From the human T2T-CHM13v2.0 reference genome, Homo sapiens: a stretch of 64,000 nt of DNA. The translations under genes were made by a program, and so were the position numbers. The notes under the pieces were generated by a model that was not told where the DNA came from, searched no databases, and worked only from the letters and a program-made list of their open reading frames with translations. The DNA lies in NCBI RefSeq assembly GCF_009914755.1, contig NC_060935.1; one strand, 5' to 3'. Positions within the stretch are counted from its first letter, which is position 1. Each line of letters begins with the position of its first letter. Below, piece by piece: positions 45,492 through 62,257 of the stretch.

Positions 45492-46145
45492 TAGAGCTTC
45501 CGTGAGCATAATTTCTTCATTCAAGGAAATGATGAGTTGAAAAGAGCCAGGCCAAAGAGAGAGCCTGGCAACACTGCACACAGCACTGGGGGCCAGACAC
45601 TTTGGGGTCACCTAGATGTATCACACAGCCCACATTTCTCTATCTTGTCTGCATTTGAACAAATGCCTTGCTGAAAGCAGGATTTAGTGACTATGATACA
45701 CTGACCCATTCTTCCTTATAAAAAATGGAACCACCGTCAGCAGAACTATGCTGGGTCTGCCTTGCCAGGGCTGTGACCTTCTCTGTACAAGTCTGTTTGC
45801 ATGTGGGCAGGGACGGTGAGTTTGTGGCCTTTTCTACGCGTTTCATATCTGGACCCATAGTTCAGTTTTGGGGGTTAGGACTGAGCTCTGGTTGGCACTG
45901 GCTAGGGCTAGACGCTGGGAAGATGGCTGGAAATATTGATGACAGATAAGCCTTTTTTGTCCAAGGCCAGACAGGTTATATCAGCCCAGACTGAGAGCCT
46001 TCTGAGTCCCCTCCCCTCCCCTCCACTTACTTCTATTACCCTGGCCTTGCCCTGGGCCTTCCTCCTTCAGAGCTTTCTGGCTCTCTGTTAGGGTAGGGCT
46101 CCATCTCCCATTGATCCTGAAAATAGATCTTGAGGGGACTCTTGA

Positions 46146-46534
<389 letters not shown>

Positions 46535-49754: not shown

Positions 49755-50737
49755 CCTCCCACCCCATCCAGACGCCTTTATTCCCTTAAGGGATGTGGGG
49801 CTGGGCTGAGCTCGAGGAGGAGGACTGGGGCCAGAGATTGAGGGTGAGGCGGTGGCCTGGGCAGAGGAATCCAGTATGGGGAGAGAGCCCAGTGCCTGGC
49901 AGGGGAGGGTAATGGGGATAATGGGGACTTTGAAGTGGCCACTACATCCTGCAAAGCCCAGGCCTAGAGAATGGGGTTTATGTGGAGCCTCTGTGTGGAG
50001 AGGGGCCCCGACTGGGGATGTCAGGGTCCCCCTGCCCTTCAGGGCAGCAGCAAGCCTTCCTCCCAGCACCTCTGCTCTCATCTCCACATGCGCTCATGCA
50101 GAGGGCTTTGTAACGGCAGTAGTGTTAACAGCAGCAATTCATTGAGCACCTGCTATAAAACAGGCGGATCACTAGATATTTTACCTGCTTTCTCTCCTTT
50201 AATTCACTCAGCAACACAATCAACTCCATAATAGCCCTATTTAAAACCTAATGTAACTGTGAGTCAGAGAGGGTCAATGACTTGCCCAAGGTCACACAGC
50301 CTAAAAGGGGCTGGCTGTGTCAGCTTTCCAGCTGGTTCCCTGAATCACACATGCCAGGAGCTTTCCCCCGGGCACAGTGGTCTGTCCAGCACCGGGTGCT
50401 GGCTGATGATGTGCTTCCCAGGGGGCTGGAATGCAGGACTCTGGCCTGTCAGGGAGAGTTACAGTCTGATGGGAGGGGGCTGCTCCTGGCAGAGCCCGGT
50501 CTTTGATGGGGGAGCCCAGCTTTGATCTCCTTTTGAAGTCCCGGCCTCTGGAACCAGCAGCTTCAGTGGGGAGAGTGCAGGGGAAGGGGGAGATGAAAGG
50601 GCAGGGGAAGCCAGATTTGGAGAGAGAGGGGGGCAGCCACAAGGAGGGAAACAGATGTGTGCATGAGGACCCGGGAGACAGGGATCTGGGAGAGGGAGTG
50701 GGAGCGGCTGGTGGGAAGAACTGAGGGAAAGGAAATG
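49755..50737 (-). other. NECTIN1: Predicted non-coding 3'UTR terminal exon of the extended NECTIN1 isoform (3' end approximate)
   Basis: Pyrimidine-rich acceptor cccttccccctcctggccttccctgtctgcccacag|CATTTCC; junction to 53108 is reproduced at 54046-54161; AATAAA on the - strand at 49777-49782. Confidence 0.55.
49777..49782 (-). terminator. Candidate polyadenylation signal AATAAA
   Basis: TTTATT on the + strand; first canonical hexamer I found downstream of the 50737 acceptor. Confidence 0.4.
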
Positions 50738-53148
50738 CTGTGGGCAGACAGGGAAGGCCAGGAGGGGGAAGGGCTGAGTGTGCCACTGTGGGGCAGGGGA
50801 GACATGAGAGACAGGCTGGGCCCAGCAGCTCCTCACCCACCATCCCCAGCTTCAAATCCCCTTTCTGTTCCCAGGGAGGCCTTTCTGGCTCTGCCATGGG
50901 CTGACTCTCAGTGTCCAATGGTCCAGAAGTTCCAGTGAGGTCCTGGCTGAGGCCTTATCCAATGGCCTGGGGATGGGGCCAGGGGGAGGTGAGGAGCTCA
51001 CATCCAGGACTTTTCTGGGATCTATCACCCAGGCTTGCACCCCAGGCGAGGGGGCTGGGATGACGGATGGGGGAGGGTGTCTGCCGCATGGCGGTGCACC
51101 TGTTCCTGTCTGACATCCTGGTTCCTCCTGTGGGGCTGCCAAGCAGGGAAGTGAGAGTGCGTGGTGGGGCGGGCTGCCTGGCAGGAAGGGCTAATTCCCA
51201 GCTAATCCCCCAAGCCTACCCCACCCAGTGCCTTGCACTGCTCTCCCATCCCCCACACTCTCAGGTCCCCTTCAGCTCCCCGCAACGCCTCCCCTGTCCT
51301 GGCACCCTGTTCCAGTGCCCTTCAGACCCTGCACCCAAACAGAGGGCCTCTCTGGGGTTCAGGGCAGCAAGTGAAAGCCAATGAGGGGGCAGCAGTAGAC
51401 CCCTCCTTTTTTGAGTTTCCTTCAGGGGCGCCTGGGATTACACCCACTCCAACTCCACGTACTTCAGAGAGGCTGGGAGGAGGTCCAAATTAGGGTTTAT
51501 GGGATTAATGACTTTTCTTCTGGCCCCCCAGACTCTCTCCCCAACTCCAAGCCTCACGCTTTCCTCCCGTTGGCCTCTCCCGGGACCCAGACCTTACAAG
51601 GAGCTGCAGTAGCCAAGCATGCCTCCTTTCACAGGGGCTGGGGAGGGGAGGAACCGCATCTGGCACCCGGCCCCTTCCTCATGCCCACAGCACCCCTTCT
51701 TTGGCGAGGGAGAGGACAGGCTGGAGCAGGGACACATCCTGGTTCTCACACCAGGTTCTCCAAGGATGCTGCACAGACGGCCTCGGGCCCCTTGCTCTTC
51801 ACTCCTCCATACCTAAGCGGGGAACTGAGGCTAAGCACATTTCTGTTGAGGTGGCAGAGGATGGTGTGTCACAGGAGGACAGGAGGTGGTTGAGATGTAG
51901 TAGGGGTGGGGAACACTGGGAAGTGGGGAGCAGATTTCTGTTGTTTGTGGGTCCTGGGACCCAGCGGGCTCTCCTGGTGGGTGGGAAAGGTTCTGTAGGG
52001 GCCACCAGAGAAGCCCCTCCTGGGCCCATCCCCCTGTGCCAGCCGTCTCGGGACCTGCTGGCTCCTGGACCCATGGGACCCCTCTTATACTCAGCGCCAT
52101 CATGTCCCTCCCAGCAGTCCTGTCTCCTCCACCTGTCCTTGTCTCTGTCCCCGTCTCTCTCCCCTCCCACCCTGCTCATCCCAAACCACTCAGCACAAGG
52201 GCCGAGGCCAGGCTTCCTCACCGTATGTGGCCCCTTGGCCTGAGTCCCCAGCGCTCAAATTCCAGTTTCTCAGTCTGAGACACCTTCACCTTCCTTTGGC
52301 TCTCAGGGAGGTCACATGTTTGCTGAAACTCCTCTGATCTTACCACGTCCCCCAGACACTGCCTGGGGTCTTTGCACTGTGGCCTCTGTGTACCTCGCAG
52401 TATCTTCCAGGGCCCACGGTAGAGACAGCCCTGCTCACCACCCATCCCTGCAGAGCCTGTGGGCTCCCCTTCAGCCCAGGACTTAGAAGTCCCGAGCTGG
52501 CCACTCTACTGAGAGTGCCTCAAGGCTAGGAACTCCCCTGGACCCTGGGCCCTCTGCGCAGGGCCTGGAATGAGCAGGCACTCAATAAAGGTTGGTTGAA
52601 TTCAACTGTCCAGCTGGGCCGGGGGGTCAAGAGGAAATGTGGGTGTGCAGCCTTGACCCTGGGGGCTCCTTGGTAAGAAAATGAAGTGGAGGCCAGCGTG
52701 GTGGCTCACACCTATAATCCCAACACATTGGGAGGCCAAAGCGGGTGGATCACCTGAGTTCAGGAGTTTGACACCAGCCTAAGGGGCCGGCTGGGATGCA
52801 GGGAGTGAGGCCACTTCTGGGGCCCACAGAGGGATAAGGAGGACTGTTGGAACAGGAAGGGGCCCTAGACTTGATTTAGATTTCACCGGTGGGGAAACTG
52901 AGGCTCAGAGAGGGGAAACAGTGTATGGCAGAAATGGAACAACATTCCTGCCCTCTGGCTCCTGGTCCACATTTCTTCTCCTGTTCTCACCAGGCCCCTG
53001 CCCACCTCCCCCACCCTTTCATTGCCAAGCCCAGCAGGTAGGGTGCAGGCCCTTCCAGGAAGGGCAAGAAGGGGCTCTCAGAGCAGGAGGGAGGTGGGTG
53101 GGTTTACCTGTGGTCCAGAAGCAGGGGTGGGTGGCTAGGGGTTATGAG

Positions 53149-53289
53149 CTAGGGTGGGCTCAACTGGATGGTGGCATATTCCACAGCCTCTGCAGGCCCT
53201 GGCACGGGGGTCCGCAGCCCTGGCACGAGTTCCAGGGCAGAGGTGTCCAGCTCTGCATAGTGGCTGTGAGTGTCCTTTAGGCCAGAGCC
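53149..53289 (-). CDS. NECTIN1: Predicted alternative terminal coding exon of NECTIN1 carrying tandem ITIM/ITSM-like motifs (46 aa + stop; exon spans 53108-53289)
   Basis: Acceptor cctgtcccttctgcctcattcctag|GGC; open phase-0 frame GSGLKDTHSHYAELDTSALELVPGLRTPVPGPAEAVEYATIQLSPP*; in frame with the donor at 62143; downstream donor CAG|GTAAAC at 53107. Confidence 0.8.
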   Translation of the reverse strand, partial: GSGLKDTHSHYAELDTSALELVPGLRTPVPGPAEAVEYATIQLSPP

Positions 53290-54045
53290 CTAGGAATGAG
53301 GCAGAAGGGACAGGTGGCAGGAGGGGTCGGTGGGGGTGTGGTCAGGACCAGACGAGGCACCCCAGGGCCAGGCGTCGGGGGAGATGGGAGGTGTGGGTGT
53401 GCAGGGAAGCATATGAGAGAGAAGGGAACCATGGAGGGTCAGGGGGATGGGGGGAGAGAGAGACGCAGAACACCAATTACTCAGTGACAACAGAGGAAAC
53501 AGGTTTAGAAAAGGTGTTTACAAAAATTAGTCACAAAACATTTACCTGCTGTGCTAAGCTGTGTCCTCTTAGGCCATGGGCATGGGTGGACAGAGGCAGG
53601 GTGGGTCCTACTCCTGAACCCCCTGTATTTGCCTCCGAGACGTTATTTGTGCTAACCCTTTCATTTTGCAGAGGGAAGAGAGATGCCTGGAGAGGGGACA
53701 TGCTGTGCAGGGGGTCACGGGGAGGCTCCTGGGGCATAAAACAGAACTTGGAGTCAAAGGGCCTGGCTTTAAAGTTTTGCCGGACCCCCCTGCTGTGGCT
53801 TGACAGGCAGATGGCTCAACCCATCTGAGCTGAGTTTTTCTTTTGTGAAATGGGAAAATAGAACTTATAAGCATATCACTATGGTTAGAACCCAGGGCTC
53901 CAACTCCCACCTCTAGCTATTCAGCGGCACTGCAGTTCTTTGACTCTTAGTGTGATTTGCAAATTATTAGAATAAGAGTGCTCCAAGGACAGGGGCTGAC
54001 ATGAAGTTGAGTAGCAGAGGCTCTCCCTCCCTCTGCTGGGAGTTG

Positions 54046-54161
54046 CAGATGTGCGAATGGGGACCCAGGAGACAGGGAGCTGGGAGAGGGAATGGGAGTG
54101 GCTGGTGGGAAGAACTGGGGTAGAGAAAATGCTGTGGTCCAGAAGCAAGGGTGGGTAGCTA
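54046..54161 (-). other. Intronless local copy of a spliced NECTIN1 3'UTR junction
   Basis: 54132-54161 matches 53108-53137 (28/30) and 54046-54131 matches 50652-50737 (75/86); the join removes exactly a GT...AG segment. Confidence 0.75.
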
Positions 54162-54929
54162 CTGACAACTCACCCTGTGGCTGTGCCAAGCTCCTTTCCC
54201 TCCCAGGGCCTCAGTTTCCCCTTCAGCAAAATAGGAGGGTGGCTTGATGATCCCTGAGGTCCTTCCAGCTCTTCTCTCTAGATCTATCCTCACAAGCTCC
54301 TCCTCCTCAGCTCAATGCTCAGTGCCAGTGTGCAGGCAGATAGATCATCTGTCCACAGAGCAGGGGCTGAGGGAGAGGAGGGCTCTCGCACGCCGGGAGG
54401 GCAGGGGCTGGTACAGGAAGAAGGCTGTGTGCTATTGCAGGGAGCTCTGTGACCTGGGCTGCTGCTCACTCTTTTCCTTGGCTGGGCCGCCTGGGCAGCA
54501 GGGAAAGCTAGGTGTGCTGATTTCAGTTGCCCTCCATCAACGCCCATCTCGTGTCCATCAATGACACATGGCATGGGCAGGGACACATGGCAGAGCTAAG
54601 ATGAATGCAATGAGCTCCTGATTCCTCACAAGGGAAAGTCACACTCTGACACCTGCTCCTCCCTTTGGCCCTGTGCTTCCACAGCCTGCCTGGAGTTGGA
54701 GGTGGGGTCAGGGGCTGGGAGGAGACACCTCTTTTCCAGAAGGAAGCAGCCTGGGTTGGAGGTTGGGGGTACAGGAGACCAGGGGCAGAAGGAAGGGGAA
54801 GGAGGCTAGACAGACAGGAAGTCTGGGTCCCAACCCACAAGTTGGGGGGACCTATAAGTGTGGCTGAGGGGCGGGGAGGTGGGGTCTGGGCAAGCAGCAC
54901 AGTGTGAGTAGGAGATGCTGGGAGCAAAA

Positions 54930-62107: not shown

Positions 62108-62257
62108 CTAGGGGCACTCTCCTCGAGGTTCGGTTGTCCTTACCGAGGGGTGGTAGGAGGGGGAGACCCCCAGATCATAGTAGGGGGGCTGCAGGGACAG
62201 CTTCTGCAAGTCCTCCTCTTCTTGCTGCTGCTGCCTCCCTGGGTCCAGGTGGACAAC
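62108..62257 (-). CDS. NECTIN1: NECTIN1 beta last coding exon as classically described (ends VRTTEPRGECP*)
   Basis: Acceptor ttctcttccag|GTT; 150 nt = VVHLDPGRQQQQEEEDLQKLSLQPPYYDLGVSPSYHPSVRTTEPRGECP plus TAG at 62108-62110; contains internal donor TCG|GTAAGG at 62143. Confidence 0.95.
   Translation of the reverse strand, partial: VVHLDPGRQQQQEEEDLQKLSLQPPYYDLGVSPSYHPSVRTTEPRGECP

What the first reader, a model, noticed from the sequence alone, without database searches (positions are those of the whole stretch)
54046..54161. Genomic splice fossil: a 116-bp intronless copy of the junction between the hidden exon and a downstream exon
Seen: 54132-54161 matches 53108-53137 (28/30) and 54046-54131 matches 50652-50737 (75/86), with no gaps. 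On the - strand the two source segments end at CAG|GTAAAC (53107) and begin after ...ctgcccacAG| (50738), so the copy lacks exactly a 2370-nt GT-AG intron. It lies in the same orientation about 0.8 kb upstream of the exon and has no poly(A) tail. Inference: a cDNA fragment of the gene's own spliced mRNA was inserted into its own intron, for example by RNA-templated break repair. That would show the extended transcript was spliced in the germ line. About 11% divergence suggests an old primate event. Caveat: donor and acceptor share CCACAG, so a microhomology-mediated DNA template switch could produce the same junction.
Basis: partly seen in the sequence, partly recalled or inferred. Interest (0 to 1): 0.85.

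Follow-up and report, generated by a model that had tools for sequence, protein, structure and literature searches.

The report
Spliced NECTIN1 RNA fragment in intron
A 116-base stretch inside a NECTIN1 intron is a diverged copy of two nearby pieces of the same gene joined exactly as splicing would join them, so it is most likely an old patch made from the gene's own spliced RNA.

Summary
54046-54131 matches 50652-50737 (75/86) and 54132-54161 matches 53108-53137 (28/30), with no gaps and a shared CTGTGG at the join. In the whole CHM13 genome the copy matches only itself and its source.

The "hidden exon" (53289-53108, minus strand) is real. It encodes the C-terminal 46 residues of predicted nectin-1 isoforms of capuchin, horse, beaver, rat and guinea pig, spliced from 62144 to 53289. 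The copy therefore lies in an 8.85-kb NECTIN1 intron, 757 bp upstream of that exon.

The missing 2370 bases start with CAG|GTAAAC and end with a pyrimidine tract plus CAG. Among 59,672 six-base repeat pairs in the window, only 4, this pair included, look this splice-like on the gene's strand. The outer junctions have no microhomology, target duplication or poly(A).

Best reading (about 0.68): a reverse-transcribed fragment of spliced NECTIN1 RNA was captured at a break, like a class-2 templated sequence insertion but in cis. The main rival (about 0.2) is a DNA-level template switch on the 6-bp homology.

No outgroup genome or RNA data could be consulted. Divergence is 11% (CI 6-18%), roughly 30-60 Myr.

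The parts
54046..54161 (-). The intronless 116-bp copy. On the minus strand it reads as 30 nt of the exon end followed by 86 nt of the downstream segment.
54132..54161 (-). Part of the copy derived from the last 30 nt of the hidden exon (28/30). 54132-54137 is the ambiguous CTGTGG overlap.
54046..54131 (-). Part of the copy derived from the first 86 nt after the acceptor (75/86).
53108..53289 (-). Hidden NECTIN1 exon. Acceptor ...ttcctag|GGCTCTGG at 53290/53289. It codes GSGLKD...EYATIQLSPP with stop TAG at 53151-53149, then 41 nt of UTR, then donor CAG|GTAAAC at 53108/53107. Source A is 53108-53137.
50738..53107 (-). The 2370-nt GT...AG interval absent from the copy. It is a mosaic of unique sequence, a MIR core (about 52880-52920) and a roughly 100-bp Alu piece (about 52673-52780).
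50652..50737 (-). Source B, the first 86 nt after the acceptor ...ccttccctgtctgcccacag|CATTTCC. This is the putative 3'UTR exon. Poly(A) signals follow on the minus strand at 50203 (ATTAAA) and 49782 (AATAAA).
62144..62257 (-). NECTIN1 beta-type exon up to its internal donor CCCTCG|GTAAGG (62144/62143). Other mammals' predicted isoforms join this donor to 53289. The copy lies in the resulting 8854-nt intron.
54187..54237 (+). MIR fragment just right of the insertion (positions 92-142 of a 223-position profile built here). It is context only.

Best explanation
A short DNA copy of spliced NECTIN1 RNA was inserted at a chromosome break in the germ line of an early primate ancestor. The copy covers the last 30 nt of the unannotated alternative last coding exon (53289-53108) and the first 86 nt of a downstream 3'UTR exon that starts at 50737. 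The break lay in the intron 757 bp upstream of that exon.

**Shown**
- The composite copy is real and unique in the genome.
- The exon is an orthologue of a predicted NECTIN1 exon of other mammals.
- The missing interval is bounded by donor- and acceptor-grade signals on the gene's strand.
- The outer junctions are blunt, without target-site duplication or poly(A).

**Inferred**
- The intermediate was RNA that was spliced, reverse-transcribed (enzyme unknown) and joined by end joining.
- The event happened in cis because the gene's own transcripts were at hand at the break.
- It dates to roughly 30-60 Myr ago.

The piece itself probably does nothing now. It is a fossil of a splice junction.
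For: 1. **Composite match.** 75/86 plus 28/30, ungapped, with E 4.9e-24 and 4.0e-5 within the window. In the whole genome the copy matches only itself and its source.
2. **Splice-like boundaries.** The missing 2370 nt begin CAG|GTAAAC, which matches 7 of 9 positions of the recalled consensus MAG|GTRAGT. They end with 14 of 17 pyrimidines plus CAG.
3. **Null test.** Among maximal 6-bp direct repeats 0.5-5 kb apart in the window:
   - 3739 of 59,672 are GT-AG compatible on either strand, and 18 of 59,672 reach these grades.
   - On the gene's strand 4 of 59,672 reach them, the real pair included.
   - Over k=4-8 the figure is 77 of 1,052,950.
   - Locally (49-55 kb) it is 1 of 4242, which is the real pair.
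4. **Site density.** In 6000 local minus-strand positions there are only 11 donor-grade and 16 acceptor-grade sites. 53108, 53289 and 50737 are among them.
5. **The exon is real.**
   - Its 46-residue peptide is the C-terminus of predicted nectin-1 isoforms: Sapajus 96% identity, also horse, beaver, rat and guinea pig. These are among 15 proteins at E<=0.01 out of 46 candidates.
   - The Sapajus isoform maps colinearly to 63995-63873, 62815-, 62263-62144 and 53289-53155.
6. **Donor use in another mammal.** A Weddell seal model that lost the stop codon stays colinear with human DNA up to the codon that spans 53108|53107. It then departs.
7. **Outer junctions.** They show 0 bp microhomology, no duplication and no poly(A). 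This fits capture of a ready-made fragment rather than serial microhomology switching.
8. **Size and features fit class-2 templated sequence insertions.** These measure 73-414 bp, lack target duplication and poly(A), are RNA-derived, and some carry spliced exons (PMC5110952, sections 4, 5 and 9 and passages read).
9. **A terminal exon is plausible.** Poly(A) signals at 50203 and 49782 lie downstream of 50737.
Against: - **The 6-bp overlap is long for a splice junction.** The exon end and the intron end share CCACAG. CAG is expected from the two consensus signals, but the other three bases are a coincidence. My rough estimate, from recalled consensus frequencies, is under 1% of real junctions. 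A 6-bp overlap is just what a microhomology switch would use.
- **Proximity favours a DNA mechanism.** The sources lie only 0.9 and 3.3 kb from the insertion, in the same orientation. Replication-based template switching explains this naturally. Published templated insertions come from distant sites.
- **The acceptor at 50737 has no independent support.**
   - The seal model's 32-residue tail does not match the 50737 exon (56 of 300 shuffles score as high).
   - It points weakly to 46135-46164 instead (window-wide E 0.54; 1 of 300 shuffles in a region picked after the fact).
   - The break in seal colinearity at the donor could also reflect simple loss of similarity in unconstrained sequence.
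- **No human transcript is annotated here** in the table supplied with the finding.
- **No empty site was seen.** No primate genomes were available.
- **The splice scoring is crude.** It counts consensus matches and uses thresholds set at the observed values. It is not a trained model.
Confidence: 0.68

Rival explanations
1. A DNA-level templated insertion without RNA. During replication or break repair the growing strand left 54045, copied 50652-50743, switched on the CTGTGG microhomology to 53108-53137, and returned to 54162 (FoSTeS/MMBIR-like). A variant is that the whole 2.49-kb segment was duplicated and then lost its middle by microhomology-mediated deletion.
For: - There is a 6-bp exact overlap at the internal join.
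- Both templates lie within 3.4 kb, in cis and colinear.
- Published reviews keep template switching open as an alternative for templated insertions (PMC5110952, section 5).
Against: - The join would have to fall by chance on a donor-grade and an acceptor-grade site on the gene's strand. That occurs in 4 of 59,672 six-base repeat pairs, the real one included, and in 77 of 1,052,950 for k=4-8.
- The 5' breakpoint is also the end of an exon that other mammals' nectin-1 models use.
- The two outer switches show 0 bp microhomology, which is unusual for serial microhomology-driven switching.
- The duplication-then-deletion variant needs two events plus the same coincidence.
Confidence: 0.2
2. Reverse polarity. 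The 116 bp was once contiguous in the source locus too, and a 2364-bp piece was later inserted there with a 6-bp target duplication (CTGTGG). This split it and created the apparent intron (an intron gain). The copy at 54 kb would then be a plain DNA duplicate of the unsplit state.
For: CTGTGG flanks the interval on both sides, like a target-site duplication.
Against: - The interval is not a mobile element. It has no terminal repeats or poly(A) ends and is a mosaic of unique DNA, a MIR core and an Alu piece.
- 50744-52660 is single copy in the genome, 1 match of 1 candidate. In the search with the whole interval, all 40 candidates scored (of 2241 found) hit only the Alu piece apart from the interval's match to itself. 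A duplicative insertion younger than the 11% divergence therefore has no visible donor.
- From recall, intron gain is essentially unknown in mammals.
- This model still needs an unexplained first duplication of 116 bp.
Confidence: 0.04
3. The three segments are members of an interspersed repeat family, or the similarity is chance in GA-rich sequence.
For: - The region is purine-rich on the plus strand.
- MIR fragments lie next to the copy.
Against: - The whole-genome search finds only the copy and its source.
- The MIR profile built from 41 copies does not match the copy or either source. The only hit in the source pieces is at E 2.8, below inclusion.
- Rfam gives nothing in 50000-54600.
- E-values are 4.9e-24 and 4.0e-5, with exact abutment.
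Confidence: 0.01

Closest known systems
Class 2 templated sequence insertions / polymorphisms (TSI, TSIP; Onozawa and Aplan, PMC5110952)
   Same: - It is a short patch: 116 bp, against a reported range of 73-414 bp.
- It is copied from an intact donor.
- It has no target-site duplication, no poly(A) and no TTTT/A site.
- An RNA origin is indicated by removal of an intron. Spliced cDNAs are reported among templates.
- It is heritable, so it arose in the germ line or early embryo.
   Different: - Reported donors are distant and scattered over chromosomes. Here the donor is the same gene, 0.9-3.3 kb away.
- This one is old and presumably fixed, not a known polymorphism.
- The empty site is unknown, so end-joining scars cannot be read.
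RNA-templated double-strand-break repair leaving whole-intron deletions (Jalan et al. 2025, PMC12065846; abstract and passages read)
   Same: A gene's own spliced transcript serves as the source of repair DNA at a break in a transcribed gene, in cis. The mark is the precise absence of an intron.
   Different: - There the intron is deleted in place, by homology with the flanking exons.
- Here the source intron is intact and the spliced piece sits ectopically in another intron, without flanking homology.
- Those events are somatic (tumours, cell lines).
Processed pseudogenes / LINE-1-mediated retrocopies (class 1 insertions)
   Same: An intronless copy of an exon-exon junction made through RNA.
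   Different: It has no poly(A) tail, no target-site duplication and no 3' end of the mRNA. It holds only 116 nt from the middle of a transcript.
FoSTeS/MMBIR templated insertions
   Same: Nearby templates in cis, two template pieces, and microhomology at the internal join.
   Different: The join coincides with splice signals on the gene's strand. There is no microhomology at the two outer joins.

Membership tests
Class 2 templated sequence insertion | Insert is a copy of sequence found elsewhere, with the donor left intact | tested here: met
   Both source segments are intact in place.
Class 2 templated sequence insertion | No target-site duplication, no poly(A) tract or signal at the insert end | tested here: met
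   Flanks GGGAGTTG| and |CTGACAAC share nothing. There is no A or T run. The nearest minus-strand poly(A) hexamers are at 50203 and 49782, outside the copied part.
Class 2 templated sequence insertion | End-joining marks at the junctions (microdeletion, microhomology, untemplated bases) | tested here: inconclusive
   There is 0 bp microhomology at both outer joins. Without the empty site, deletions or added bases cannot be seen.
Class 2 templated sequence insertion | RNA origin of the template | tested here: inconclusive
   The precise absence of a GT-AG interval with good signals is very unlikely for a DNA junction: 4 of 59,672 at k=6 on the gene strand. However, no RNA data were seen and the acceptor is unconfirmed.
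Class 2 templated sequence insertion | [quoted passage not shown] | tested here: not met
   The sources lie 0.9 and 3.3 kb away in the same gene.
LINE-1-mediated retrocopy (processed pseudogene, class 1) | Poly(A) tail, target-site duplication of 5 bp or more, insertion at TTTT/A | tested here: not met
   None of the three is present.
FoSTeS/MMBIR templated insertion | Microhomology at each template switch | tested here: not met
   Only 1 of 3 joins has it: 6 bp at the internal join, 0 bp at both outer joins. Later mutation (11%) could hide 1-2 bp.
Whole-intron deletion by RNA-templated repair | Intron removed in place between its own exons | tested here: not met
   The 2370-nt interval is still present at the source. 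The intronless version is ectopic.
Interspersed repeat (MIR or other) | Many diverged copies in the genome; match to a family profile | tested here: not met
   Only 2 places in the genome match, the copy itself and its source. A MIR profile built here does not cover the copy. No Dfam library was at hand.
NECTIN1 alternative last coding exon (for the source exon 53289-53108) | Orthologous peptide at the C-terminus of nectin-1 proteins, joined to the preceding NECTIN1 exon at the predicted boundary | tested here: met
   These are predicted models of other species, not experimentally shown isoforms. The exon is absent from the human table supplied.

The most novel reading that the evidence does not exclude
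A break in a transcribed NECTIN1 intron in an early anthropoid germ line was patched with DNA copied from the gene's own spliced mRNA held at the locus. That would make this a fixed, roughly 30-60 Myr old footprint of transcript-templated break repair acting in cis at a non-homologous site. It would also preserve a 3'UTR splice junction (53108->50737) of an unannotated NECTIN1 isoform that carries ITIM-like motifs, and so show that this isoform was expressed and spliced in germ cells.
Probability: 0.5. Interest if true: 0.7.

Novelty: new member of a known kind. Interest (0 to 1): 0.55.

Why it matters
If the RNA reading is right, three things follow.

- **Repair history.** It is a natural germ-line example of a break patched with a gene's own spliced transcript. 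Evidence for this process so far comes mostly from engineered breaks, tumours and polymorphic insertions from distant donors (PMC5110952, PMC12065846).
- **Gene annotation.** It gives independent, sequence-only evidence that NECTIN1 transcripts run about 9-12 kb beyond the annotated human 3' end. These transcripts pass through a conserved exon that encodes two ITIM-like motifs, and they carry a 3'UTR intron 41 nt after the stop codon.
- **Method.** Local "junction fossils" could be mined genome-wide to find unannotated exons and to measure how often transcripts are used in cis during repair.

If the DNA reading is right, it is an ordinary small complex duplication of no consequence.

Tried and rejected
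**1. Polarity test through the flanking MIR.** The idea was that if the copy splits one MIR element, it must be the derived state.
- I built a MIR profile from genomic copies only: 13 pattern matches, iterated to 41 copies.
- MIR is found at 54187-54237 and, as a separate copy, at 53804-53890. The left flank 53960-54045 is not MIR-like and is unique in the genome.
- The test is inconclusive.

**3. Outgroup genomes.** None is held; the genome tool states that the window's genome has no relatives. The empty site and the date could not be checked.

**4. Human paralogues of the exon peptide.** None: 1 match, itself, of 3 candidates.

**5. Mapping the seal model's 32-residue tail.**
- It does not match the intron start (107 of 300 shuffles score as high).
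- It does not match the 50737 exon (56 of 300).
- There is a weak post-hoc hit at 46135-46164.

**6. Rfam on 50000-54600.** No family.

**7. Literature.**
- No paper contains the peptide word EYATIQL.
- No paper holds both 'retrocopy' and 'own intron'.
- 'nectin-1' with 'ITIM' gave 97 papers. In the 10 listed titles and abstract openings I saw none on such an isoform, and I did not open them.
- 'templated insertion', 'exon-exon junction' and 'reverse transcri' gave 3 papers with unrelated titles.

**8. Single-element insertion into the source.** Rejected on the content and uniqueness of the interval.

**9. A trained splice-site model.** None was available. I used consensus-match counts instead.

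Full report
**Observation**

- 54132-54161 matches 53108-53137 at 28/30, and 54046-54131 matches 50652-50737 at 75/86, both without gaps.
- blastn of 53800-54400 against the window reports the first match as 92 bp at 88.0% (54046-54137 vs 50652-50743, E 4.9e-24) and the second as 30 bp at 93.3% (E 4.0e-5).
- The 6 extra bases arise because CTGTGG stands at the start of both 50738 and 53108. The join in the copy is therefore ambiguous over 6 bp.
- Beyond 54045 and 54162 there is no similarity to the source flanks.
- On the minus strand the interval absent from the copy is 2370 nt, from ...GGACCACAG|GTAAACCC to ...CCTTCCCTGTCTGCCCACAG|CATTTCC.

**Not a repeat, not chance**

- A search of the whole CHM13 genome (held as G000) with 54030-54180 scored 2 of 2 candidates: the copy itself and the 50652 segment.
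- A self-blast of the window gave 1044 HSPs. Only 10 are low-copy pairs, and this is the only local one.
- The right flank (54170-54240) is a MIR fragment. It matches 11 other genomic places, and a profile I built from 41 genomic copies matches it (model positions 92-142, E 4e-10).
- That profile does not cover the copy or either source.
- Rfam finds nothing in 50000-54600.

**What the sources are**

The minus strand of 53289-53108 has the following layout.
- An acceptor-grade site lies at 53290/53289.
- A 46-codon frame (GSGLKDTHSHYAELDTSALELVPGLRTPVPGPAEAVEYATIQLSPP) ends at TAG 53151-53149.
- 41 nt follow the stop.
- A donor-grade site CAG|GTAAAC lies at 53108/53107.

Evidence that this is a NECTIN1 exon:
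- A protein search found 15 proteins at E<=0.01 among 46 candidates. In them this peptide is the C-terminus of predicted nectin-1 isoforms of Sapajus apella (96% identity), horse, beaver, rat and guinea pig, and of several 'uncharacterized' carnivore, rabbit and sheep models.
- The Sapajus isoform maps colinearly onto the window: 63995-63873, 62815-, 62263-62144 and 53289-53155.
- In human DNA the exon ending at 62144 has an internal donor CCCTCG|GTAAGG. The annotated human isoform reads through this donor.

So the 'hidden exon' is a conserved alternative last coding exon of NECTIN1. It is not in the human table supplied with the finding. The copy lies in the 8854-nt intron in front of it, 757 bp upstream, on the gene's strand.

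The peptide carries two motifs of the ITIM form (S-x-Y-x-x-L and V-x-Y-x-x-I; the motif definition is recalled). It has no paralogue in the human genome (1 match, itself, of 3 candidates).

**Is the join a splice junction?**

I scored donors by matches to the recalled consensus MAG|GTRAGT (9 positions). I scored acceptors by pyrimidines in positions -20 to -4 plus YAG. The real pair scores 7/9 and 14/17 with CAG.

As a null for DNA-level microhomology joins, I enumerated all maximal exact direct repeats 0.5-5 kb apart in the window. I asked whether any equivalent placement of the deletion gives GT...AG.

| Null set | GT-AG compatible | Reaching the observed grades |
|---|---|---|
| k=6, either strand | 3739 of 59,672 (6.3%) | 18 of 59,672 |
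| k=6, gene strand | 1507 of 59,672 | 4 of 59,672 (real pair included) |
| k=4-8, gene strand | 21,364 of 1,052,950 | 77 of 1,052,950 |
| k=6, 49-55 kb only, gene strand | 85 of 4242 | 1 of 4242 (the real pair) |

- With laxer grades (donor at least 6, pyrimidines at least 12) the rate at k=6 on the gene strand is 96 of 59,672.
- Locally there are 11 donor-grade and 16 acceptor-grade sites in 6000 positions.
- Between a possible branch site (cactcAg) and the acceptor there is no other AG (read).
- The thresholds were set at the observed values and the score is crude, but the effect is large.

**Independent support for the donor, none for the acceptor**

- A Weddell seal model (P0007) has lost the stop and reads on. 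By tblastn it is colinear with human 53214-53107 (E 4e-14) and stops being colinear at the codon that spans the donor.
- Its last 32 residues match neither the human intron start (107 of 300 shuffles as good) nor the 50737 exon (56 of 300).
- The best place for that tail is 46135-46164 on the minus strand (window-wide E 0.54; 1 of 300 shuffles in a region chosen after the fact).
- This suggests the donor is used in another mammal's model. It could equally reflect loss of similarity outside the exon, and it does not confirm 50737.
- Downstream of 50737 the minus strand has ATTAAA at 50203 and AATAAA at 49782. A terminal 3'UTR exon of about 0.55-1 kb is therefore plausible.

**Polarity**

I could not see an empty site, because no other primate genome is held. 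The MIR test failed to decide: the left flank is not MIR-like and is unique in the genome.

Polarity rests on three points.
- The contrary view needs either two independent copies that abut exactly, or a 2364-bp insertion into the source with a 6-bp duplication.
- The interval is not an element. It is a mosaic of unique DNA, a MIR core and a roughly 100-bp Alu piece.
- 50744-52660 is single copy in the genome (1 match of 1 candidate). In the search with the whole interval, 40 of 2241 candidates were scored, and apart from the interval's own match all hit the Alu piece.

At one of the two mismatches in the 30-nt part, the source agrees with the seal (His) and the copy does not (Tyr). This single site is compatible with either polarity and is not decisive.

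**Junctions of the insertion**

- The left flank ...GGGAGTTG| and the source flank ...GGAGGGAAA| end differently.
- The right flank |CTGACAAC and the source flank |GGGGTTAT start differently.
- So there is 0 bp microhomology at both outer joins, no target duplication, no poly(A) and no TTTT/A site.
- This fits end-joining capture of a ready-made fragment. It excludes LINE-1 target-primed insertion.

**Age**

- There are 13 mismatches in 116 bases: 10 transitions and 3 transversions, 3 at CpG.
- p = 0.112 (95% CI 0.061-0.184) and K2P = 0.124.
- The two parts do not differ in divergence (11/86 vs 2/30, Fisher p 0.51).
- With recalled neutral rates of 1.0-2.2e-9 per site per year this gives about 28-62 Myr. 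That points to an early anthropoid or older primate event, with wide error.

**Weighing the mechanisms**

A trans capture of a random cDNA would hardly land within 1 kb of its own exon, so the event was local. The contest is therefore between a cis RNA patch and a cis DNA template switch.

| Reading | In its favour |
|---|---|
| DNA template switch | The 6-bp overlap. Only CAG is expected from the splice consensus; I estimate the extra three bases at under 1% of real junctions, from recalled frequencies. Proximity to the sources. |
| RNA patch | The splice-grade boundaries on the gene's strand (about 7e-5 under the null). The breakpoint at the end of a conserved exon. The blunt outer joins. 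|

My rough likelihood ratio is of the order of 100 for RNA, against prior odds I cannot fix well. I put the probabilities as follows:
- RNA patch: 0.68
- DNA template switch: 0.20
- Split of the source by insertion: 0.04
- Repeat or chance: 0.01
- Unknown: the rest

**Comparison with what is known**

The closest kind is the class-2 templated sequence insertion (PMC5110952; sections 4, 5 and 9 and passages read).
- Reported features are 73-414 bp, no target duplication or poly(A), and RNA origin supported by reverse-transcriptase inhibitors and RNA transfection. Spliced cDNAs are among the templates.
- The difference is that those donors are distant.

The closest in logic is RNA-templated break repair that leaves whole-intron deletions in cis (PMC12065846; abstract and passages read).
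- There the intron is lost in place.
- Here the spliced piece is ectopic and the source intron is intact.

I found no report of a gene's spliced fragment inserted into its own intron. This rests on the searches only, in open-access full text. Supplementary tables of the TSIP papers were not consulted and may hold such cases.

**Verdict**

It is a new member of a known kind of event. It serves as evidence for an unannotated NECTIN1 3' structure and as a possible germ-line footprint of transcript-templated repair.

Noticed in passing
window 53108-53289 (-), with 62144-62257 (-): A conserved alternative last coding exon of NECTIN1 that is absent from the human table supplied. It encodes 46 residues with two ITIM-like motifs (HYAEL, VEYATI). 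It forms the C-terminus of predicted 487-494-residue nectin-1 isoforms of capuchin, horse, beaver, rat and guinea pig, spliced from the internal donor CCCTCG|GTAAGG at 62144/62143. The human frame, acceptor and upstream donor are all intact. No paper in the searched library contains the word EYATIQL.
   Followed up: partly
P0007 (Weddell seal model) vs window 53107-53214 and 46135-46164 (-): The seal model has lost the stop codon and reads 47 residues further. It is colinear with human DNA only up to the donor at 53108/53107. Its tail matches weakly at 46135-46164 (PTNTSLLKSP vs [10 protein letters not shown]), which may mark another downstream exon.
   Followed up: partly
window 53149-53151 vs 53108: The stop codon of the hidden exon lies only 41 nt before the putative exon junction. 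By the recalled 50-55-nt rule, a spliced 3'UTR here would not trigger nonsense-mediated decay.
   Followed up: no
window 53804-53890 (+), 54187-54237 (+), about 52880-52920 (-): MIR fragments, recognised with a profile built here from 41 genomic copies. The two around the copy cover overlapping model positions, so they are separate elements and not one element split by the insertion.
   Followed up: yes
window about 52673-52780: A roughly 100-bp Alu piece inside the 2.37-kb interval. It is the only part of that interval with other copies in the genome.
   Followed up: partly
loci L004-L013 (chr15 and chrY of G000): The MIR-like right flank of the copy has its best matches (81% over about 65 bp) in a sequence present at many places in chr15 80-83 Mb and on chrY. 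These are evidently copies within segmental duplications.
   Followed up: no
window 54079 and 54174 (-): The simple site scan flags an acceptor-grade site inside the copy (54079, homologous to 50685) and a donor-grade site just outside it (54174). I did not examine whether the copy is ever exonised.
   Followed up: no
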